In this document: positions 3 to 64,000 of the stretch, one piece after another
Layout of the letters: each line of letters opens with the position of its first letter
Numbering within the stretch: the stretch's first letter is position 1
Source of the DNA: Candidatus Uhrbacteria bacterium
GTDB lineage: Bacteria; Patescibacteriota; Patescibacteriia; UBA9934
Assembly: GCA_018673485.1 (NCBI GenBank)
Contig: JABHCP010000011.1
Coordinates: forward strand, 5,417-69,416
Reading direction: 5' to 3'
DNA: 64,000 nt
Program-made: the position numbers and the translations under genes
Notes under the pieces: generated by a model
Told to the model about the DNA's origin: nothing
Databases searched by the model: none
The model's input: the letters and a program-made list of their open reading frames with translations, nothing else

Positions 3-866
3 ACAGATATTGGTTACCGGATTGGGCCAAGAATTAATGCGTCAGGAAGAATACGAGAGGCAAAGATCGCTTTCGACGCGATAAATGCAATGGATGCTAA
101 TGAGGCGACAAAGTTTGCGCTCGAGCTTGAGATGATAAATAGAGAGCGACAGAGATTATCCGACGCAGCGTATAAGGAAGCTCGAGTATTGATCGATTTG
201 GATAGGCATGTGCATGTTATTTGGGATCAAACATGGGCACCGGGAATCGTCGGACTCGTAGCAGGCAAGATCGCGCACGAGACTAACACGTCGACATTTG
301 CTCTAACAATCTCTGGAGATCAGTATGTTGGTTCAGGTCGCTCTGCGCGTGGACTTCATTTGGTCGAGGCCATGCACTCATGCGGTGATATTTTTGTAAA
401 AGCAGGCGGGCATCCGGAAGCATGTGGACTAACATTCGAGAGCCTCGAGATGGTTGAGCTGTTTAAAATTAAAGTTAATGAATTCGCTAAGGATCGATTG
501 GCGTTAGCTGAGGAAATGCAGGAGCTACTGATCGACTCAGAGGTCAGCTTTGAGGATATCGATTGGGCGCTCCATGAGCAGGTAGAGAAGTTCGCTCCTT
601 TCGGCAAGGGTAACAGCGAGCCAATTTTTTCCTTGATGAACGTAAGAGTCGCCTCGGTTAAAGTAATTGGGCAAACCGGAAAACATCTTAAGTTACGAGT
701 TGGTTCTGAAGCCCGATCAATCGACTGCATCGGATTTGGTTTCGGAGATTTAGGAACATCACTCAAGATCGGATCAAACATCGACCTCGCCTTTAAGATA
801 GGAGTCAATGAATGGAACGGACAACGTAATCTGCAGTTAATAATTGAGGATATTGTGATAAAATAG
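3..866 (+). CDS. recJ: single-stranded-DNA-specific exonuclease RecJ, C-terminal part (gene continues upstream of window)
   Basis: DHHA1 motif KAGGHPEACG and RecJ-type C-terminal OB tail ...EWNGQRNLQLIIEDI; frame open to window edge, first listed Met at 90. Confidence 0.7.
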   Translation, partial: TDIGYRIGPRINASGRIREAKIAFDAINAMDANEATKFALELEMINRERQRLSDAAYKEARVLIDLDRHVHVIWDQTWAPGIVGLVAGKIAHETNTSTFALTISGDQYVGSGRSARGLHLVEAMHSCGDIFVKAGGHPEACGLTFESLEMVELFKIKVNEFAKDRLALAEEMQELLIDSEVSFEDIDWALHEQVEKFAPFGKGNSEPIFSLMNVRVASVKVIGQTGKHLKLRVGSEARSIDCIGFGFGDLGTSLKIGSNIDLAFKIGVNEWNGQRNLQLIIEDIVIK

Positions 867-872
867 GCGCAT

Positions 873-1292
873 ATGCATGTACGATTATATTCTGATGGTG
901 GAGCGAGAGGGAATCCAGGGCCGGCTGGGGCGGGTTATATTATTTATGCAGTTGATGAGGATGGGAATCAAACGGATAGGCTTTTCGAAGGCAATGAGTA
1001 CATGGGCGTGGCTACAAATAACCAGGCTGAATATCACGCTATTGTGATTGGGCTCGAGAAGGCTCTTGAGCTTAACGCGACGAGCGTTGATTCGGTGCTT
1101 GATTCTGAGCTTTGCGTGAAGCAGTTGAATCGCGAGTATAAGGTTAAGAATGAAATTTTAGCGAAAAAATTTATTGAGGTTTATAACCTGCAGACTAAGT
1201 TTGAAAAAGTTACGTTCAGACATGTCCGGCGTGAGTATAATAAGGAGGCGGACGCTCAAGTTAATATCGCAATTGATGAAGCACTAAAGTAG
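873..1292 (+). CDS. rnhA: ribonuclease HI
   Basis: SDGGARGNPGPAG...TNNQAEY RNase H type-1 motifs, 139 aa. Confidence 0.8.
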   Translation: MHVRLYSDGGARGNPGPAGAGYIIYAVDEDGNQTDRLFEGNEYMGVATNNQAEYHAIVIGLEKALELNATSVDSVLDSELCVKQLNREYKVKNEILAKKFIEVYNLQTKFEKVTFRHVRREYNKEADAQVNIAIDEALK

Positions 1293-1390
1293 CGTCGAAT
1301 TTTACTGCAATCTTTGCTATAATCGAGGTGCAACGAAACTCTATTTTTATTATGAAATTTTTTTCAAAAAAGGATCAGGCAGGCGCGGGC

Positions 1391-2497
1391 ATGATGGGTG
1401 TTGATATTGGCGCTGGCGGAATTAAGATAGTTGAAATTTTACCGCAGAAAGGTAGAGCAAAGCTTTCAACCTATGGTCATGCACAACGTAAGACTCATAC
1501 AGATGGTGCATTGATCGATCAACCACAAAAGGCTGCTAAGTTAATCAGCGCGGTTGTCAAAAAAGCTGGAATGAAATCCGGGCGAGTTAACGCTGCACTT
1601 CCGTCGCAGGCTGTTTTTCATGCCATAGTTACAATTCCGCAACCAAAAAGTAAAAAGGATGATTTGAAGCCATTAATTGAGGCTCAGGTGACAAAACTCT
1701 TACCAAGACCAATCGGCGAGATGATTCTTGATTCGACTGTGATAGACAAGCATTTGCTACCAAAGGATGAATCGGTTAAAGCTAAGAAATCAAAAGATAA
1801 AAAAGACGATAAAAAGTCTGAAGAGATTTTAAAGGCAAAAGAGCGCAAACATATACGAGTTTTGGTGTCAGGTGCTCCGAAAGTTTTGGTACAAAAATAC
1901 GTCGATATATTCAAAGTCGCAAAATTGGAATTGGCGTCTCTGGAGACTGAGGCGTTTGCACTAATCAGATCGTTGGTTGGAAAGGATATGTCTAAAATAA
2001 TGATTGTAGACATTGGTTACGAACGAACTAACATAACCATTGTGAGTCATGGTATTCCATTTTTGCATCGATCAATTAAAGCCGGAGGAATAAATGTAAC
2101 ACAGGCAATCGCAAAACAAATGGGAATATCGCCAGCACAAGCCGAGCAGGTTAAATTTGATTTGGCAATTGGTGCGCAGAAGGAGCAGAAGATGCCAAAT
2201 ATTATCCGTGAATCTGTGATGCCAATATTGCACGAGGTGAAATATGCGCTTGAGCTATACGATCAGCAGGATTTTCATGAGCACTCAGTAGTCGATAAAA
2301 TAATTCTCACCGGTGGGTCTGCACACTTACCATTTCTGGATCCATTCTTGACAGAGGCACTCAATATTAATGTTTACTTGGGTAATCCATGGGCAAGAAT
2401 CGCAACTCCGGAAGGTTCACAGGAGGTATTGAGTGAGATTGGCCCAAGAATGGCAGTTGCTGCCGGTTTAGCCATGAAAGTATCAAAGAATTCATAA
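1391..2497 (+). CDS. pilM: type IV pilus assembly ATPase-like protein PilM (alternative start 1328)
   Basis: actin-like ATPase fold start MMGVDIGAGGIKIVEI, position upstream of pilin and prepilin peptidase; contains K-rich insertion. Confidence 0.7.
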   Translation: MMGVDIGAGGIKIVEILPQKGRAKLSTYGHAQRKTHTDGALIDQPQKAAKLISAVVKKAGMKSGRVNAALPSQAVFHAIVTIPQPKSKKDDLKPLIEAQVTKLLPRPIGEMILDSTVIDKHLLPKDESVKAKKSKDKKDDKKSEEILKAKERKHIRVLVSGAPKVLVQKYVDIFKVAKLELASLETEAFALIRSLVGKDMSKIMIVDIGYERTNITIVSHGIPFLHRSIKAGGINVTQAIAKQMGISPAQAEQVKFDLAIGAQKEQKMPNIIRESVMPILHEVKYALELYDQQDFHEHSVVDKIILTGGSAHLPFLDPFLTEALNINVYLGNPWARIATPEGSQEVLSEIGPRMAVAAGLAMKVSKNS

Positions 2498-2498
2498 T

Positions 2499-2861
2499 AT
2501 GCGTTCGATCTTAATCATTGCGTGCGATTTTTACCTGGCCGGTATATACGGCCGAAAGTTTGAGCACGATGGTTGGGATGTCGAGATTGCTGAGTCGATA
2601 GCTGACGGTAAGACGATGATCGCAAAAATGCAGCCGGACGTTGTATTGCTTGAGAAGGATTGCACAAAAGATATTGTTGATTTGGTGCGAGAACTCAAGG
2701 GCTTGCCAACGATGCAATCTGCTAAGCTAGTTATTTTAGCCAAAGAATCAGATCGTGATGAAATTCAAAAAGCACGAAACGCGGGTGCCGATCAATACCT
2801 TCTTCTGGGACACTTCGTTCCACATGAGGCAGTTGAAAAAATAAGACAACTTGTATCGTGA
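2499..2861 (+). CDS. response-regulator receiver-like (pseudo-receiver) domain protein
   Basis: REC-like layout ILIIACD...PDVVLLEKD...LVILAKES...GADQYLL; the phospho-acceptor Asp position appears to be Glu. Confidence 0.45.
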   Translation: MRSILIIACDFYLAGIYGRKFEHDGWDVEIAESIADGKTMIAKMQPDVVLLEKDCTKDIVDLVRELKGLPTMQSAKLVILAKESDRDEIQKARNAGADQYLLLGHFVPHEAVEKIRQLVS

Positions 2862-2875
2862 TATAATCACAACAT

Positions 2876-3382
2876 ATGTATAAAAGCGGATTTACAAAAA
2901 TTGAGATTCTAATTATTGCGACCATTGTTGGTGTGCTAGGGCTGAGTGCTGTTTTTGCAGTAACGACTGCCAGATCACGAACTCGTGACGCTGTGAGGAT
3001 GTCCGATGTACGACAAGTGCAAGCGGGCCTTGAGGTTTACTTTATAGGCAACAATGCCTATCCGGAGTCGTTGGATTATATGGCGCTAGGAACAGCTACA
3101 ACTAAATGCCTTACTCAAAATGGATTTACATCAAATTGCACGAGCGGTGCATATTTGGAGGCAGTGCCGAGCGCGCCGAGCGCTGGTCTTGCCGGGCTTT
3201 CATCTTGCTTAGGGGTATCTGACGCTTATTGCTATTTAGCTCAAAATGGAGACTATAGAATTCAATTTGAACTTGAACACAATAATAGTTTAGTAGGACT
3301 TCAAAAAGGAGCAAATTGCGCAACTCAAGATGGATTAAAATCTGGCGAGTGTAGTGCTTTGCCAATTGGTGGATCTAATTAG
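2876..3382 (+). CDS. type IV pilin / pseudopilin
   Basis: prepilin N-terminus MYKSGFTKIEILIIATIVG (G/FT-IE class III signal) followed by hydrophobic helix. Confidence 0.7.
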   Translation: MYKSGFTKIEILIIATIVGVLGLSAVFAVTTARSRTRDAVRMSDVRQVQAGLEVYFIGNNAYPESLDYMALGTATTKCLTQNGFTSNCTSGAYLEAVPSAPSAGLAGLSSCLGVSDAYCYLAQNGDYRIQFELEHNNSLVGLQKGANCATQDGLKSGECSALPIGGSN

Positions 3383-3387
3383 AGATT

Positions 3388-4179
3388 ATGACTGAGATCA
3401 TTTGGACAATATTAGTTAGCTTGGGTGGAATCTGCATTGGATCACTTTTAAACACAGTTGTATTTAGGGTGCAGAAAAACATCCCCATCAAAGAACGTTC
3501 AAAATGCATGAAGTGCTTGAAGCCGATTCACTGGGTAGACAAGGTGCCGATTGTAAGCTTCTTCAATCTAAAAGGACGATGTAGAAATTGTTCAGATGTT
3601 ATTTCATGGCAGTACCCAATCATCGAGATGACGACTGGAATACTCATCGGCCTGCTCTTTGTACGTGCACTATTCGGATTCGGATTTTTCGGCTTCGAGG
3701 ATCACACCGAGTGGCTGATCGTATTTGCTCGTGATGCAATAATCGCATGTCTTCTACTTATCATATTTATATATGATTATAAGTATTCGATAATCTTGGA
3801 TCGATTTTCTGTGCCAGCGATTGGTGTCGCGATTGTCTTTAACGTCATTCTTGGCGCAAGTTCGATGGAAATGTTACTTTCTGGTCTTTTGATCGGTGCA
3901 TTCTTCGCATTTCAGTTCTTAGTATCACGTGGAAGATGGGTTGGCTCGGGCGACATTCGTATGGGACTTTTGATCGGGGTCTTATTCGGTGCAAAGCTTG
4001 GAATAGTGGCCTTGCTTCTTTCGTACATTCTGGGTGCATTCGCGGGAGTCTTCTTGATAGTATTCAAGAAAAGAAAACTGGAAAGCCATGTACCATTTGG
4101 TACATTCATGACTTTGGCAATGATACTAACGTTATTCTTCGGAGAGATGCTGGTAGACTGGTACTTGGGAATGTTATAA
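3388..4179 (+). CDS. pilD: prepilin peptidase (A24 family)
   Basis: CxxC...CxxC zinc motif (CMKC...CRNC) followed by multi-TM peptidase domain; directly downstream of pilin. Confidence 0.8.
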   Translation: MTEIIWTILVSLGGICIGSLLNTVVFRVQKNIPIKERSKCMKCLKPIHWVDKVPIVSFFNLKGRCRNCSDVISWQYPIIEMTTGILIGLLFVRALFGFGFFGFEDHTEWLIVFARDAIIACLLLIIFIYDYKYSIILDRFSVPAIGVAIVFNVILGASSMEMLLSGLLIGAFFAFQFLVSRGRWVGSGDIRMGLLIGVLFGAKLGIVALLLSYILGAFAGVFLIVFKKRKLESHVPFGTFMTLAMILTLFFGEMLVDWYLGML

Positions 4180-35579: not shown

Positions 35580-36302
35580 ATGGATAAAAATAAGCACAAG
35601 ATGATAGTCACCGCATCCTTTTTTAGCATTTTTCTTCTTTGCATATTAAATATAGGAATTATTTTTCTCGATTCACATGTAAGCTTCTGGGAAATGAGCC
35701 TTATGGTTGGATTTATATTATTAATACAAAGTATCTATCTACTCACACGAACTAAATATATTAAGGTAATATTTTTCATTCTGCTTGTGGTAGTTTCAAT
35801 AACATTATTTTTTGTAAATTCGCCATGGAAATTAATCGATACCTCTCAAATGTACTGGATTTGGCAGTATGAGAATTTAGAACCATATTCTTTTACTTTA
35901 TCTGGGCTTGATTTTGAAGCCCCATGCCCCTCCAGCCCCACAATAACTGATACTCAATTTAATTGTGAGAATGGTTTATTGAAAATCGACGTTACTCAAG
36001 ACAACGGCTTTGCTTTTGCGCTTGCAAGTAATGGAGTGTCCATAGGTCATGCACCGATGACTTACCCAGTCCTACATGGAATGTCGCCATTTTCTAGCAT
36101 ATCACTGCATCTGGATGAAGATAATTGCATAACGGCATTACCCCTAATCGCATATGAAGATGTTAGAATTGATTTTTCAGCAAAAGTTTGCGGAGATGAA
36201 GGTGATACTAAGGGTGCAATAACCTCACTTTGGGAACAACGTGCCGAACCTTTAATGAAAGGGGTATCATTCCCAGATGGAGGATACATTTCGGAGTATT
36301 AG
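35580..36302 (+). CDS. hypothetical membrane protein
   Basis: N-terminal TM helices. Confidence 0.5.
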   Translation: MDKNKHKMIVTASFFSIFLLCILNIGIIFLDSHVSFWEMSLMVGFILLIQSIYLLTRTKYIKVIFFILLVVVSITLFFVNSPWKLIDTSQMYWIWQYENLEPYSFTLSGLDFEAPCPSSPTITDTQFNCENGLLKIDVTQDNGFAFALASNGVSIGHAPMTYPVLHGMSPFSSISLHLDEDNCITALPLIAYEDVRIDFSAKVCGDEGDTKGAITSLWEQRAEPLMKGVSFPDGGYISEY

Positions 36303-36311
36303 ACTACATCA

Positions 36312-36929
36312 ATGATTAATATGACAAAGCAAATCAATAAAGTGAACTTCCTTATTCATCCTGGTTGGTTTTATGAATATGCAGTTCAAGATGCGGTGCA
36401 TTATGAAGGCAGTATAGATGAACAGGTTAGAGAAGCGGGTGAGAAGATGCTCGATAGTTATTTGAAACATGTGAAGAGCATTGGGGAAGATGAGATACTT
36501 TTTGTTTTCGCTACTTCATCAGTAGAAAGTATGTTGAACATGAAGGATGAGGGTTTTGGTAAGTCACTCGATACTCTGAGGGAAATAAAAGGTCAACTGG
36601 GAAGGCGTGCAATTATCATCACCGATCCTTTAATAGAAATTAGCAGTGGTGGCGAGAACGTATACAAGAAAGCAAGGCAAATGGCCTTAGCTAGAGGATT
36701 TGAATTTGGCAAGGATGTAACGAGTGAGGCATTTGGTGAGCAGTTGGGTAATTGTGTGGAAAATGGGGCAGAAAAATTCAATGAGATTGAAGGTTTTAGT
36801 ATAAAGACCCTTATTAGACCAGAGCTTTCTGACGCTCCCCATGAACTATTCGGTGAGTACGATCCCAAAGCTCATGAGAAGGAGATGCTCGAAGGTGAAG
36901 ATGGACTTAAAAGAGTTCGTTACAATTAG
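36312..36929 (+). CDS. hypothetical protein
   Basis: ORF only. Confidence 0.45.
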   Translation: MINMTKQINKVNFLIHPGWFYEYAVQDAVHYEGSIDEQVREAGEKMLDSYLKHVKSIGEDEILFVFATSSVESMLNMKDEGFGKSLDTLREIKGQLGRRAIIITDPLIEISSGGENVYKKARQMALARGFEFGKDVTSEAFGEQLGNCVENGAEKFNEIEGFSIKTLIRPELSDAPHELFGEYDPKAHEKEMLEGEDGLKRVRYN

Positions 36930-60514: not shown

Positions 60515-60898
60515 CTATGCCAAGAATCCAAGGTACCCAAGTACCAATCCAATGATTAAAACAATAAATGACGATGCGAATAATGCACCACCGGTTTTCA
60601 TCATGCTCTTTGCAAAATTAGTAAACACTTTTGGAATAAGCAACCAAAAAGCTCCTTTAAGAAGAGTTATCCAACCAATTACAGTGATAATTACTGGCCA
60701 CCCTTCCCAAATATTATGAGATACTACCATAGCTGCACCAAGCAATAGCGCCCAGATAGCAATAGAGAACACAGCAGTGGAATTTTTTATCATCCCATCG
60801 ACTACCTTACCCATGGTTTTAGCATTGAACATCATCCCAAAACCAAATACTACAAAGTAAATTGCGAACACCTTAGCGAAAAATATTGATAATTCCAT
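60515..60898 (-). CDS. small multi-pass membrane protein (ORF opens 61003)
   Basis: hydrophobic helices. Confidence 0.45.
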   Translation of the reverse strand: MELSIFFAKVFAIYFVVFGFGMMFNAKTMGKVVDGMIKNSTAVFSIAIWALLLGAAMVVSHNIWEGWPVIITVIGWITLLKGAFWLLIPKVFTNFAKSMMKTGGALFASSFIVLIIGLVLGYLGFLA

Positions 60899-60947
60899 AT
60901 TATAATTTATAGCAGAAAAGGACCCGTTAAGGCCCTTCTCATTTTTC

Positions 60948-61424
60948 TTATCTAACCAAGCTAATTGCAGCTCCGCCCTCTGGGTCACAAGCTCCAACCT
61001 CAATTGTACCGTTTGTTCCCTTCATCAGATAATAATCTGTTAGAAGTGCGGTACCTGTACTTGGGTCTAGAGGAACCGACCCAAGATATCCTTCAGTGAC
61101 TAACGCTGACAGATCAACACATGCATTCTGTGTAGTTTGCGCTGTACATCCAACGTTACATCCCGTTGCCCCGTTTGTTCCGATCGTGTAGTACAGATCA
61201 TCAGTAAGTGCAACAACTGATGCAACGTATGCTCCACCATTGTCAACCTGGTCGGTAACAACTGCAGTTAGTACATTGTTTAGATCATTGAACCGTCGTG
61301 CATCACGAGCTTCTTGGAACCGAGTCACAGGATCCAAAGCTACGAAAATAGCTGCTGCTAAAATTGCAATAACTGCAATTACGATCAGCAATTCAATCTA
61401 AGTAAAACCTTTTTGGTTTTTCAT
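60948..61424 (-). pseudogene. type IV pilin with in-frame TAG at codon 9 of the prepilin leader (MKNQKGFT*IELLIVIAVIAIL)
   Basis: reverse complement atgaaaaaccaaaaaggttttactTAGattgaattgctgatc; TAG occupies the invariant Leu of GFTLIEL. Confidence 0.6.
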
Positions 61425-61507
61425 ATTTTGAAAAGAAAATTATTAAGTGTTTTGAGTATATCATTTGTACAAGCTATTGTGTATAATGTTATTAAGGTTT
61501 TCCACAT

Positions 61508-62815
61508 ATGTTTTCAAAAAAGGAGGATTCGAAAAAAACCAATGATGCCGTAGGGTCAAAAAAGAACGTTCCAATAATCGGGACTTCTGATTTGGAAAAG
61601 ATGATCAAGGCAGCCGGAACAAAGACAGCGCGAGAAACGCTGGTTATTGAGTTTATGGATGCACTCATGCTCTATGCAAATCAAAACAGAGCGTCGGATG
61701 TTCACCTAGAACCAAAGCGTGAAGGTATGGCGATAGTTAGATTGCGAGTGGATGGAATGCTCCGAGATGAATTTGAAATTCCGTATTCACTGCACAGCCA
61801 GTCTGTTGCGCGATTAAAGATCATGACCAACATGCGCTCGGACGAACATCGCGCACCGCAAGATGGACGATTTTCGTTTAAAACACAAGTTGAAACTGTC
61901 GACGTGCGCGCATCGATAATAGCAACCGTATATGGTGAGAAAGTTGTACTTCGACTCCTCTCAGGCGCAACACACGGACTCACACTTGAAGACTTAGGAT
62001 TTTCTGAAACCGACCTGCAAAGATTACGCGCGCAAATCAAGAAGCCGTGGGGAATGATTTTGGCGACTGGTCCAACTGGATCTGGAAAGACAACATCAAT
62101 TTACGCAGTGCTTGAGGAGCTAAACAGGCGAGAAGTAAACATATCCACAATCGAGGATCCGGTCGAATTCAAATTAGGAGACGTAAACCAAAGCCAAGTA
62201 GATAGACCAGCTGAGTTTACATTCGCGACAGGACTGCGCTCTCTTTTACGACAAGACCCGGATATTATTATGGTGGGTGAGATTCGTGACAAAGAAACTG
62301 CAAAAATAGCTGTAAACGCCGCACTTACTGGACATAAAATGTTATCCACACTGCACACCAACGACGCGCCAACAACAATCCCACGTCTTATGGATATGGG
62401 TGTTGAGCCGTATTTGGTTGCATCGACCTTTAATTGTGCTGTAGGCCAACGTCTTATGCGTCGAGTTTGTGAAAAATGCGCAAAAGAGATTTCTTTAACT
62501 AAAGCTGAAGCTGTCAAAAAATTGCCCGAAGCTACAGTCAAGTTAGTATTCAAAGACAAGGATAGCATCGAGATAATGGAAGCTGTAGGGTGTGAAGCTT
62601 GTGGAAAAAGTGGATATCACGGACGAATAGGAATATATGAAGTGCTGGTCAATACACTGGAAATGCAAAGTCTTATCGCTCAACGTGCTGAAAGCACTGT
62701 AATTCGTGAAAAAGCAATCCAGCAGGGAATGACAACCATGGAAGAAGATGGGGCGCGAAAGCTACTACAAAAAGTTTCAACACTTGATGAATTCATGAGA
62801 GTTTTGCATGAGTAA
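61508..62815 (+). CDS. pilB: type IV pilus assembly ATPase, PilB/GspE family (short form)
   Basis: Walker A GPTGSGKTT, Asp/His boxes, C-terminal CxxC...CxxC. Confidence 0.85.
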   Translation: MFSKKEDSKKTNDAVGSKKNVPIIGTSDLEKMIKAAGTKTARETLVIEFMDALMLYANQNRASDVHLEPKREGMAIVRLRVDGMLRDEFEIPYSLHSQSVARLKIMTNMRSDEHRAPQDGRFSFKTQVETVDVRASIIATVYGEKVVLRLLSGATHGLTLEDLGFSETDLQRLRAQIKKPWGMILATGPTGSGKTTSIYAVLEELNRREVNISTIEDPVEFKLGDVNQSQVDRPAEFTFATGLRSLLRQDPDIIMVGEIRDKETAKIAVNAALTGHKMLSTLHTNDAPTTIPRLMDMGVEPYLVASTFNCAVGQRLMRRVCEKCAKEISLTKAEAVKKLPEATVKLVFKDKDSIEIMEAVGCEACGKSGYHGRIGIYEVLVNTLEMQSLIAQRAESTVIREKAIQQGMTTMEEDGARKLLQKVSTLDEFMRVLHE

Positions 62816-63959
62816 AGAAAAATCTCCTAAAATAAAAAAAGAAAAGGTGGAATCAAAATCTACCGATTCCTCTGAACAGGTACCGATAAAAAAGAAAGTC
62901 TCGCTTTCAACAAGGCTCAATGTAAGATTGGGCTCAAAAGAAAAAGTACTTTTTGTAAAGTACATGTCTGTATTACTTGAATCAGGCCTGCCGCTTGATC
63001 AAGCTTTAGACATTTTACTCACCCAATCAAAAGGACCACTCAAAAAAATCTTAGAATCCGTATCAGTAGAGATTCAAAATGGAAAGCAATTAGCTGACGG
63101 TCTTGAGCACTATCCACACATTTTCTCAGAGGTATTCATTAACTTGATTCGTGCTGGTGAAAATACTGGAACACTTAAAGAAAACTTAGCGTACTTGGCC
63201 GAACAAGCACAAAAACAATACGACTTAAAGCAAAGTATCCGCGGCTCAATGATGTACCCAATCATTGTCTTACTCGGTGGCGCGATTGTGAGTGTATTTA
63301 TCATCGTATTCATTTTCCCAAATATCGTAGCCTTGTTTGACACATTAGATGTTGAGCTTCCGTTTGCCACAAAGGTACTACTTTGGATAGCAGATGTATT
63401 TGAAAACTATCCATTGCATTTAATCGCTGGAATTATACTTGCAATAGCTCTATTTATCATTGCTAGAAAAATTAGAACTACTAGATACATTTTAGATGCA
63501 ATGTTTCTTCGTGTTCCGATCGTTGGACGAATACTGCGCGACAGCACACTGTCAAATGTGTTCAGACTACTGGGCACACTACTCGAAAGTGGAATGCCTT
63601 TGAAGAAATCCATCAAGGTCACGCGTTCGACAGCGAATAATATGGTTTTTCAGAAAATGTTTGACGACCTAGAAGACCAAGTTAATCAAGGTGGGGAACT
63701 AGTCACCGTATTGCGCAAGTATGACCATATTGTTCCACTCATGTCAGTGCGGCTTATCCACGTTGGCGCACAAACTGGTAAGCTCGAACACATGCTTTTG
63801 TATCTAGCAAATTTTTACAGCAAGGAAGTAGACGAACTATCAAAGAAGATCTCTGTAGTCATCGAGCCGATACTAATCATTGGAATAGGTTTCATGATTG
63901 GATTTTTGGCATTCGCGATCATAACACCTATTTATCAAGTAATAACTAGCGTTGGGTAA
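62808..63959 (+). CDS. pilC: type IV pilus platform protein, PilC/GspF family
   Basis: duplicated GspF domain, 3 TM, overlaps pilB stop. Confidence 0.8.
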   Translation: MSKEKSPKIKKEKVESKSTDSSEQVPIKKKVSLSTRLNVRLGSKEKVLFVKYMSVLLESGLPLDQALDILLTQSKGPLKKILESVSVEIQNGKQLADGLEHYPHIFSEVFINLIRAGENTGTLKENLAYLAEQAQKQYDLKQSIRGSMMYPIIVLLGGAIVSVFIIVFIFPNIVALFDTLDVELPFATKVLLWIADVFENYPLHLIAGIILAIALFIIARKIRTTRYILDAMFLRVPIVGRILRDSTLSNVFRLLGTLLESGMPLKKSIKVTRSTANNMVFQKMFDDLEDQVNQGGELVTVLRKYDHIVPLMSVRLIHVGAQTGKLEHMLLYLANFYSKEVDELSKKISVVIEPILIIGIGFMIGFLAFAIITPIYQVITSVG

Positions 63960-64000
63960 TGAAAAAACCAGGATTTACATTTCTTGAAATTTTAGTAGTC
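63959..64000 (+). CDS. type IV pilin, N-terminal fragment (continues beyond window)
   Basis: MKKPGFTFLEILVV prepilin leader; ATG overlaps pilC stop (TAATG). Confidence 0.6.
   Translation, partial: MKKPGFTFLEILVV

What the first reader, a model, noticed from the sequence alone, without database searches (positions are those of the whole stretch)
60948..61424. Pilin gene with a TAG stop replacing the invariant Leu of the prepilin leader (GFT*IELLIVIAV)
The reverse strand reads ATG AAA AAC CAA AAA GGT TTT ACT TAG ATT GAA TTG CTG ATC, which is a canonical class III signal except that TAG sits where TTG or TTA (Leu) is expected. TAG is used as a true stop by neighbouring genes such as recJ and rnhA. 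Candidate explanations are a recent pseudogene, a sequencing error, phase variation by point mutation, or initiation at the downstream TTG giving an unprocessable pilin. Other pilin genes are intact at 2876 and 63959.
Basis: seen in the sequence. Interest (0 to 1): 0.55.

Follow-up and report, generated by a model that had tools for sequence, protein, structure and literature searches.

The report
Amber-stop knockout of a conserved pilin gene
A highly conserved pilus-subunit gene of an uncultured ultrasmall bacterium (Candidatus Uhrbacteria) carries a genuine, recently arisen single-base stop mutation that appears in every assembly of this strain, so it is a young natural knockout and not a sequencing error or a special genetic code.

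Summary
The minus strand at 61424-60948 reads MKNQKGFT-TAG-IELLIVIAV…, a complete 158-codon type IV prepilin gene with TAG (61400-61398) at codon 9.

- **The base is real.** All 13 contigs whose DNA was read, from different samples and three contig-naming styles, carry the same TAG. They are about 100% identical to the window, so they represent one clonal population.
- **It is derived.** The nearest intact orthologs have TTG, TTG or CTA at this codon, so the lesion is one TTG>TAG transversion. Leu is invariant in 55 of 55 orthologs. Paralogs in this window have Lys or Phe there.
- **It is young.** The gene shows no decay: dN/dS is 0.02-0.04, the lowest dN in the neighbourhood. Only two conservative lineage-specific replacements exist, and there are no indels.
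- **The code is standard.** TAG ends 17 of 63 long ORFs, and no suppressor tRNA lies in the window.
- **No other allele is known.** No intact or revertant allele is in a 15-billion-protein collection.
- **It is not recurrent.** A pattern survey found no other genuine pilin with a stop at this codon.

Best reading: a young, apparently fixed nonsense allele (null or strongly hypomorphic) of the pilA-position pilin. Leaky read-through remains possible because this position tolerates other residues. The finding is ordinary in kind.

The parts
60948..61424 (-). Interrupted type IV prepilin gene at the pilA position. It has 158 codons including the internal TAG and ends at TAA 60950-60948.
   Evidence: Sequence read. 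Pfam N_methyl E=1.7e-11 with Leu restored. 80-94% identity to intact orthologs.
61398..61400 (-). Premature amber codon TAG at codon 9 (mature position +3). It is derived from TTG by one T>A change.
   Evidence: Identical in L001-L010 and L028-L030. Orthologs have TTG (L017-L022) or CTA (L012-L016).
61389..61391 (-). TTG codon 12. This is the start that gene callers use for the 147-aa remnant and a possible re-initiation codon. Its product would lack Gly-1, Phe+1 and Glu+5.
   Evidence: No SD-like motif lies at a suitable distance (seen in the sequence).
61455..61483 (-). Promoter-like site with an extended -10 (TG-A-TATACT). The ATGATATACT core is also present in the intact relatives.
   Evidence: The same ATGATATACT core is seen upstream in L017-L022.
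60915..60940 (-). Terminator-like hairpin just after the pilin stop codon.
   Evidence: -15.7 kcal/mol, z = -3.45.
61508..62815 (+). PilB-type assembly ATPase, transcribed divergently from the pilin. Intact.
   Evidence: Pfam T2SSE E=2e-116. dN/dS about 0.03 and no excess lineage-specific changes.
62808..63959 (+). PilC-type platform protein. Intact.
   Evidence: Pfam T2SSF E=8.3e-54..
63959..64000 (+). Start of the next prepilin gene (MKKPGFTFLEILVV…), cut by the window end. It is a 165-aa gene in L001.
2876..3382 (+). Intact paralogous prepilin (MYKSGFTKIEILII…) with Lys at the position equivalent to the TAG.
3388..4179 (+). Prepilin peptidase (A24 family).
   Evidence: Pfam A24_N_bact E=4.3e-25 and Peptidase_A24 E=5.6e-9.
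1328..2497 (+). PilM-type pilus assembly protein.
   Evidence: Pfam PilM_2 E=5e-36.

Best explanation
This is a true type IV prepilin gene of a Candidatus Uhrbacteria (CPR/Patescibacteria) strain. It sits in the classical pilA position, monocistronic and divergent from pilB-pilC. In this strain it has acquired a single T>A transversion that changes the Leu codon TTG (mature position +3) into an amber stop. The mutation is real and is the only allele seen for this clonal population. It is evolutionarily very young. Translation from the normal ATG ends after 8 residues, so the strain makes little or no processable pilin from this gene. It is therefore a natural null or strong hypomorph, that is, an incipient pseudogene. 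The rest of the pilus machinery and the other pilin genes remain intact.

Shown: the DNA change, its polarity, its reproducibility, the absence of decay, and standard use of TAG as a stop.

Inferred: loss of function, and the reason the allele persists. Possible reasons are a dispensable pilus type, escape from a pilus-dependent phage or predator, or hitch-hiking in a clonal bloom.
For: - **TAG in frame in a bona fide pilin.**
- **Reproducible.** The identical TAG is in 13 of 13 contigs read, from ENA and JGI assemblies with three contig-naming styles (k141_, NODE_, scaffold) and several samples. These contigs are 99.97-100% identical to the window.
- **Derived.** The three nearest ortholog lineages are intact with TTG, TTG and CTA. 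Leu9 is invariant in 55 of 55 orthologs.
- **Young.** dN/dS is 0.017-0.037 against relatives at dS>1.3. Only 2 conservative window-specific replacements (T106S, V141I) occur, against 7 and 6 in the intact lineages. There are no indels or second stops.
- **Standard code.** TAG ends 17 of 63 long ORFs. The window holds only tRNA-Ser(GGA) and tRNA-Asn(GTT).
- **No alternative allele.** No intact or revertant allele was found.
- **Not recurrent.** No other genuine pilin carries a stop at this codon in 185,579 genomes or 241 M metagenome records.
- **Redundancy exists.** There are intact paralogs at 2876 and 63959.
- **Precedent.** In the CPR bacterium TM7x one of two pilus types is non-essential and its pilin can be knocked out (PMC11623550).
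Against: - The gene is the most conserved protein in its neighbourhood. Its dN of 0.04-0.05 is below PilB, PilC and GreA. A null allele should therefore be costly, yet it is the only allele seen in 14 or more assemblies.
- Promoter, terminator and the whole coding sequence are still pristine. That fits a very young pseudogene equally well as a gene still expressed through leaky read-through.
- Position +3 tolerates Lys, Phe or Trp in natural pilins, so a read-through product could work.
- No expression or protein data were available.
- Only 64 kb of the genome could be checked for a suppressor tRNA.
- The samples probably come from one environment (Saanich Inlet, inferred from adjacent BioSample numbers). 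'Fixed' therefore means fixed in one local clone.
Confidence: 0.75

Rival explanations
1. Leaky hypomorph. The amber codon is read through at a low level, by a near-cognate tRNA or by an amber suppressor tRNA encoded outside the window. The strain then still makes a reduced amount of full-length, processable pilin with some residue at +3.
For: - Complete absence of decay in a gene under very strong constraint.
- The allele persists as the only one seen.
- Position +3 naturally accepts Lys, Phe or Trp.
- The TAG is followed by A. From my general knowledge of E. coli RF1 context effects this is a relatively weak termination context. However, 7 of the 17 genuine TAG terminators in the window are also followed by A.
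Against: - TAG is a normal terminator for 27% of long ORFs in the window. Some of these would fuse to the next gene if read through.
- No suppressor tRNA lies in the window.
- No recoding-type structure was identified; the local fold is only moderately stable (z = -2.5).
- Basal bacterial UAG read-through is usually at or below 1% (my general knowledge), which is little for a major structural subunit.
- No other pilin shows this arrangement.
Confidence: 0.12
2. Re-initiation after the early stop, at ATT codon 10 or TTG codon 12. This would yield a leaderless, unprocessed membrane-anchored protein (the 147-aa product that databases annotate) with some residual or new function.
For: - A start-capable TTG lies 6 nt after the TAG.
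- This genome hardly uses Shine-Dalgarno sequences (5 of 54 starts), so initiation does not depend on an SD.
- Gene callers annotate this product.
Against: - The product lacks the basic leader, the Gly-1/Phe+1 cleavage site and Glu+5. These are required for prepilin peptidase processing and filament assembly (established pilin biology, my knowledge).
- The truncated product has no Pfam hit on record.
- No relative uses such a start. P0124's short call is only a mis-called start on an intact gene.
Confidence: 0.05
3. Reversible ON/OFF phase variation of pilus expression through TTG<->TAG point mutation.
For: Pilin genes are classic phase-variable loci in other bacteria (my general knowledge). 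A single base separates the ON and OFF states.
Against: - No ON allele, and none of the 7 single-step revertants, exists in the collection.
- All 13 contigs are OFF.
- The switch site is a plain substitution, not a hypermutable repeat or an invertible element.
- No other pilin shows a stop here.
Confidence: 0.04
4. Sequencing or assembly artefact, or a non-standard genetic code in which TAG is a sense codon.
For: A single-base difference is the kind of thing an error could produce. Some lineages reassign stop codons (my general knowledge).
Against: - The same base appears in 13 contigs from different samples, sequencing projects and assemblies.
- TAG ends 17 of 63 long ORFs, and no other gene in the 64 kb is interrupted.
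Confidence: 0.02

Closest known systems
Intact orthologous prepilins of Candidatus Uhrbacteria (for example P0122 in GCA_964452565.1; P0124, P0002, P0006 and P0009)
   Same: Same length (157-163 aa) and 78-94% identity. Same synteny: pilin divergent from pilB-pilC, followed by a 127-aa membrane protein, a CMD-family gene and greA. The leader is identical or near-identical (MKNQKGFT in P0124 and P0002, MRNQKGFT in P0122).
   Different: They have TTG or CTA (Leu) where the window has TAG.
pilA of Pseudomonas aeruginosa-type T4a pilus loci, where the major pilin is divergent from pilB-pilC(-pilD) (my knowledge of the literature)
   Same: Class III signal (short basic leader, Gly-1, Phe+1, Glu+5), a hydrophobic alpha1-N helix, and a monocistronic pilin divergent from the ATPase and platform genes. 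The predicted topology is a long N-terminal helix plus a small beta-sheet head.
   Different: The prepilin peptidase is about 57 kb away, next to another pilin and pilM. The head domain has no significant solved-structure neighbour. The reading frame is broken. Major-pilin status is inferred from position and conservation only.
Geobacter PilA-N ('Geopilin domain 1', PDB 7tgg, 9egp, 2m7g)
   Same: Best sequence match among solved structures. It covers the leader plus the alpha1 helix, residues 1-58 (E=1.8e-6).
   Different: The match covers only the N-terminal helix. The Uhrbacteria protein has its own four-cysteine globular head.
Engineered pilin knock-outs of the non-essential thin pilus (T4P-2) in the CPR bacterium Nanosynbacter lyticus TM7x (PMC11623550)
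   Same: A CPR bacterium with more than one set of pilin genes in which loss of one pilin is viable but affects host binding and fitness.
   Different: Those are laboratory mutants in a different phylum-level lineage (Saccharibacteria). Here the knockout arose naturally, and which pilus type it belongs to is unknown.

Membership tests
Type IV prepilin (class III signal peptide; Pfam PF07963 N_methyl) | Short basic leader ending in Gly(-1), followed by Phe(+1) and Glu(+5) | tested here: met
   MKNQKG|FT*IE is encoded at 61424-61392. G6, F7, T8 and E11 are invariant in the orthologs.
Type IV prepilin (class III signal peptide; Pfam PF07963 N_methyl) | Profile match to the N-terminal methylation motif plus a hydrophobic alpha1-N segment of about 20 residues | tested here: met
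   E=1.7e-11, 43.6 bits against a cutoff of 21.2, but only with Leu put in place of the stop. The 147-aa remnant has no Pfam hit on record.
Type IV prepilin (class III signal peptide; Pfam PF07963 N_methyl) | Uninterrupted reading frame linking leader and mature domain, that is, a functional gene | tested here: not met
   TAG at codon 9 in the window and in 13 other contigs.
Type IV prepilin (class III signal peptide; Pfam PF07963 N_methyl) | Pilin fold: long N-terminal helix packed on a beta-sheet head | tested here: inconclusive
   The AF2 model of the 94%-identical ortholog P0122 has pLDDT 87.8, a helix at 9-61 and 4-5 strands. Foldseek against PDB gave no hit with E below 0.2.
Type IV prepilin (class III signal peptide; Pfam PF07963 N_methyl) | Genomic association with assembly ATPase, platform protein and prepilin peptidase | tested here: met
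   T2SSE at 61508-62815, T2SSF at 62808-63959, A24 peptidase at 3388-4179 and PilM at 1328-2497.
Type IV prepilin (class III signal peptide; Pfam PF07963 N_methyl) | Cleavage, N-methylation and assembly into a filament | not testable with these tools
   Needs proteomics or cryo-ET.
Unitary pseudogene / natural nonsense allele | Premature stop relative to intact orthologs, with derived polarity | tested here: met
   TTG/TTG/CTA in three ortholog lineages against TAG here.
Unitary pseudogene / natural nonsense allele | The lesion is real in the DNA, not an assembly error | tested here: met
   13 of 13 contigs read carry it.
Unitary pseudogene / natural nonsense allele | Relaxed selection or further decay (raised dN/dS, indels, additional stops) | tested here: not met
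   dN/dS is 0.02-0.04, with 2 lineage-specific replacements against 6-7 in intact relatives and no indels. This is compatible only with a very young pseudogene or a still-functional gene.
Unitary pseudogene / natural nonsense allele | Absence of a full-length product | not testable with these tools
   Needs metaproteomics or metatranscriptomics of the source samples.
Phase-variable (contingency) pilin locus | Both ON and OFF alleles present in the population | tested here: not met
   No intact or single-step revertant allele exists among about 15 billion proteins. All contigs are OFF. Read-level minor alleles were not testable.
Phase-variable (contingency) pilin locus | A hypermutable repeat or invertible element at the switch site | tested here: not met
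   The lesion is a base substitution in ACT-TAG-ATT, seen directly in the sequence.
Stop-codon reassignment or global amber suppression | TAG avoided as a terminator, and in-frame TAGs in many genes | tested here: not met
   17 of 63 long ORFs end in TAG. No other interrupted gene was found in 64 kb.
Stop-codon reassignment or global amber suppression | A tRNA with anticodon CUA, or loss of RF1 | tested here: inconclusive
   None in the window, which holds only tRNA-Ser GGA and tRNA-Asn GTT. The rest of the genome could not be reached.

The most novel reading that the evidence does not exclude
The amber codon may not be inactivating. This Uhrbacteria strain might still produce its most conserved pilin at a reduced level. 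That could happen by read-through of UAG at a substitution-tolerant position (+3), or through an amber suppressor tRNA elsewhere in the genome. The nonsense codon would then act as a stable 'dimmer' on pilus expression that selection has kept in a natural CPR population.
Probability: 0.08. Interest if true: 0.55.

Novelty: new member of a known kind. Interest (0 to 1): 0.2.

Why it matters
Taken alone this is an ordinary event: one nonsense mutation in one gene of one strain. It has modest value in three ways.

- **Annotation.** Public databases carry the remnant as a 147-aa 'hypothetical protein' or 'PulG pseudopilin'. It should be flagged as an interrupted prepilin.
- **A natural experiment.** Type IV pili are thought to be central to the episymbiotic lifestyle of CPR bacteria (PMC11623550, PMC9894109). 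Here a wild clonal Uhrbacteria population apparently lives with its most conserved, pilA-position pilin knocked out. It probably comes from the Saanich Inlet time series, which according to my recollection also has metaproteomes, and whose metatranscriptomes are listed in PMC5688066. Whether this pilin is dispensable, leaky, or lost under phage or host pressure could therefore be tested with existing data.
- **Method.** The case shows that cross-assembly comparison can settle an 'error or mutation' question without access to reads.

Tried and rejected
- **Sequencing error.** Rejected: 13 of 13 contigs carry the same TAG.
- **Alternative code or local suppressor.** Rejected for the window: TAG is a normal stop and no tRNA-CUA is present.
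- **A second truncated relative (P0005, 141 aa) as evidence of a conserved stop.** Rejected. Its contig L011 has coverage 1.1 and an unrelated upstream sequence, and looks chimeric.
- **P0124 (150 aa, starting exactly at the Leu codon) as evidence of an upstream lesion.** Rejected. The DNA is intact (ATG…ACT TTG) and the start was simply mis-called.
- **Recurrent stops at this codon in prepilin leaders.** Rejected. The pattern GGNTTYACNTRRATHGARYTNYTNATHGT gave 1 chance hit in genome contigs. In metagenome contigs it gave 3 Trp-variant pilins plus 1 chance hit. The window's own lineage is not in either collection.
- **Phase variation.** No ON allele was found.
- **Recoding RNA structure around the TAG.** Only a moderately stable generic fold was found (z = -2.5). 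Rfam reported nothing but tRNAs.
- **Fold-level classification of the head domain.** Foldseek against PDB returned nothing significant.
- **Direct literature look-up of the sample identifiers.** This found nothing. Provenance rests on adjacent BioSample numbers.
- **Other broken genes in the window.** The larger intergenic gaps examined contain only small ORFs and no split genes.

Full report
**Observation**

On the minus strand the window reads ATG AAA AAC CAA AAA GGT TTT ACT TAG ATT GAA TTG CTG ATC GTA ATT GCA GTT… from 61424. This translates as MKNQKGFT*IELLIVIAV…, and the frame stays open to TAA at 60950-60948. The TAG is codon 9 (61400-61398). The mechanical ORF list shows only the 147-aa remnant starting at TTG codon 12, position 61391.

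**What the gene is**

- With Leu restored, the protein matches the Pfam N-terminal methylation motif (PF07963) at E=1.7e-11.
- It finds 2,482 homologs. The best full-length ones (157-163 aa, 78-94% identical) are named prepilins of Candidatus Uhrbacteria, a CPR/Patescibacteria lineage.
- In an alignment of 55 orthologs, G6, F7, T8, L9 and E11 are invariant, as are C93, C102 and C146; the fourth cysteine, C89, is nearly invariant (90% or more).
- An AlphaFold2 model of the 94%-identical intact ortholog P0122 has pLDDT 87.8. It shows a helix spanning residues 9-61 followed by a small beta-sheet head, which is the pilin 'lollipop' topology.
- Foldseek against PDB returned no significant neighbour. 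At the sequence level only the N-terminal helix matches solved Geobacter PilA-N structures.
- The gene is monocistronic. It has an extended -10 promoter-like site at 61483-61455, whose ATGATATACT core is also present in relatives. A terminator-like hairpin follows at 60940-60915.
- It is divergent from a PilB-type ATPase (61508-62815) and a PilC-type platform protein (62808-63959). Another prepilin starts at 63959.
- From my knowledge of Pseudomonas-type loci, this divergent arrangement is the classical major-pilin (pilA) position. Major-pilin status here is an inference.
- A second pilus locus in the window holds PilM (1328-2497), a paralogous pilin (2876-3382) and the prepilin peptidase (3388-4179).

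**Is the TAG real?**

The exact 147-aa remnant is called on 13 contigs of ENA and NCBI assemblies and on 5 JGI contigs. I read the DNA of 13 of these (L001-L010, L028-L030). Every one has ATG AAA AAC CAA AAA GGT TTT ACT TAG ATT GAA. Three contig-naming styles and several samples are represented.

The ten contigs compared with the window by BLAST (L001-L010) are 99.97-100% identical to it. They therefore sample one clonal population. BioSample numbers adjacent to SAMN05224481 and SAMN05224494 belong to the Saanich Inlet oxygen-minimum-zone series (PMC5688066). The provenance is probably that water column, but this is an inference.

**Polarity and age**

The nearest relatives are only about 72-80% identical in DNA, yet 87-94% identical in this protein. 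All are intact.
- L017-L020 have ACT TTG ATT.
- L021 and L022 have ACC TTG ATT.
- L012-L016 have ACA CTA ATC.

Two apparently truncated relatives turned out to be uninformative.
- P0124 is a mis-called start on an intact gene.
- P0005 sits on a probable chimeric contig with 1.1x coverage.

The lesion is therefore a derived single T>A transversion, TTG>TAG.

Nei-Gojobori estimates:

| Comparison or gene | dN | dS | dN/dS |
|---|---|---|---|
| Pilin, window vs L017 | 0.049 | 1.31 | 0.037 |
| Pilin, window vs L022 | 0.038 | 2.23 | 0.017 |
| PilB | 0.06-0.10 | | |
| PilC | 0.10-0.13 | | |
| Downstream 127-aa gene | 0.17-0.35 | | |
| GreA | 0.19-0.28 | | |

This pilin has the lowest dN in the neighbourhood.

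In a three-taxon comparison the window lineage has only two unique replacements, both conservative (T106S, V141I). The two intact lineages have 7 and 6. There are no indels or further stops.

My rough calculation is as follows. About 351 non-synonymous sites times about 0.65 substitutions per site on the branch gives about 228 expected neutral replacements. The Poisson upper bound for 2-4 observed is 6-9. The gene can therefore have evolved neutrally for no more than about 3-4% of the time since the split from its nearest sequenced relative. The mutation is very young, or it is not inactivating.

**Alternative decoding**

- TAG ends 17 of 63 long ORFs, including the recJ-like and rnhA genes.
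- No other gene in the 64 kb is split.
- The window has only tRNA-Ser(GGA) and tRNA-Asn(GTT).
- No Rfam element lies near the site.
- The local RNA fold is unremarkable (z = -2.5).

A reassigned code is excluded. A suppressor tRNA elsewhere in the genome could not be checked.

**Phase variation**

Exact look-ups were made for the Leu-restored protein and for all single-step revertants (Gln, Tyr, Trp, Ser, Lys, Glu, and X). None was found among about 15 billion proteins. The site is a plain substitution, not a repeat tract. There is no support for an ON/OFF switch, although minor alleles at read level remain untested.

**Is it a recurrent theme?**

A degenerate pattern for G-F-T-(TAA/TAG/TGA/TGG)-I-E-L-L-I-V was scanned against two collections.
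- In 185,579 species-representative genomes it found one chance, non-pilin match.
- In 241 M metagenome records it found three genuine pilins with Trp (GFTWIELLIV) and one chance TGA match.

No other genuine pilin has a stop at this codon. This is a one-off lesion.

**Could a product still be made?**

Two routes are imaginable.

1. **Read-through.** Position +3 is invariant among orthologs but not among pilins generally. It is Lys in the 2876 paralog, Phe in the 63959 paralog and Trp in other taxa. Most near-cognate insertions would therefore probably give a processable pilin. Basal UAG read-through is normally low (my general knowledge). The 3' A context is shared by 7 of the 17 genuine TAG terminators here.
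2. **Re-initiation at ATT codon 10 or TTG codon 12.** This genome almost lacks Shine-Dalgarno motifs (5 of 54 starts), so SD absence is no obstacle. The product would lack the leader, Gly-1, Phe+1 and, for the TTG start, Glu+5. On established pilin biology these are needed for prepilin-peptidase cleavage, N-methylation and assembly.

**Verdict**

The best-supported explanation is a genuine, very recent and apparently fixed amber mutation (confidence about 0.75). It makes the pilA-position pilin of this Uhrbacteria clone a null or strong hypomorph, that is, an incipient pseudogene. PilB, PilC, PilM, the peptidase and the other pilins stay intact.

Why a null in such a conserved gene persists is not shown. 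Three explanations are plausible.
- The pilus type may be dispensable. In the CPR bacterium TM7x one of two pili is non-essential (PMC11623550).
- Loss may be selected, for example by pilus-dependent phage.
- The allele may have hitch-hiked in a clonal bloom.

The main rival is leaky read-through (about 0.12). Re-initiation (0.05), phase variation (0.04) and artefact or alternative code (0.02) are less likely.

In kind this is ordinary: a new instance of a nonsense allele in a known gene family. Its small added interest is as a natural pilin knockout in an uncultured episymbiont lineage for which existing multi-omic data could show whether the pilin is truly off.

Noticed in passing
whole window; examples at 2876(+), 12510(-), 35580(+), 57872(-), 50999(-), 23061(-), 33071(+), 6132(-), 60898(-): Only 5 of 54 confident gene starts have any Shine-Dalgarno-like 4-mer upstream. 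Many have a TATAAT-like box, often TG-extended, ending only about 7-12 nt before the ATG. This suggests that leaderless or SD-independent translation is the norm in this Uhrbacteria genome.
   Followed up: partly
window 90-1292 (+) and 35580-36929 (+): The recJ-like ORF ends in TAG at 864-866 and is followed in the same frame, 2 codons later, by rnhA (873-1292). Likewise 35580-36302 ends in TAG and 36312-36929 continues in frame. Read-through would fuse these pairs. This is probably coincidence, since about one third of neighbouring genes share a frame.
   Followed up: partly
window 60948-61424 and orthologs (A1/A2): This pilin family is unusually conserved for a pilin. Its dN is lower than that of PilB, PilC and GreA across relatives with saturated synonymous sites. 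Three cysteines are invariant and a fourth nearly so, and a DQVDNGG motif is highly conserved (D61, N62 and G64 invariant). Its predicted head domain has no significant match in PDB.
   Followed up: partly
L012 117-563 and L016 216-662: In one intact relative lineage a Y1_Tnp (IS200-type) transposase gene sits immediately upstream of the orthologous pilin gene, where pilB is found in the window.
   Followed up: no
window 60515-61003 (-): Gene callers annotate the downstream membrane protein as 157 aa, overlapping the pilin 3' end by about 41 nt. Relatives and the ATG at 60898 indicate a 127-aa protein. It has no Pfam match.
   Followed up: no
L024, L025, L027: Genuine high-GC pilins naturally carry Trp at mature position +3 (GFTWIELLIV). 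This shows the position is substitution-tolerant.
   Followed up: no
window 2499-2861 (+): A 120-aa response-regulator-receiver-like ORF sits between pilM and the 2876 pilin. Its Pfam Response_reg score of 22.6 bits is below the gathering score of 30.2.
   Followed up: no
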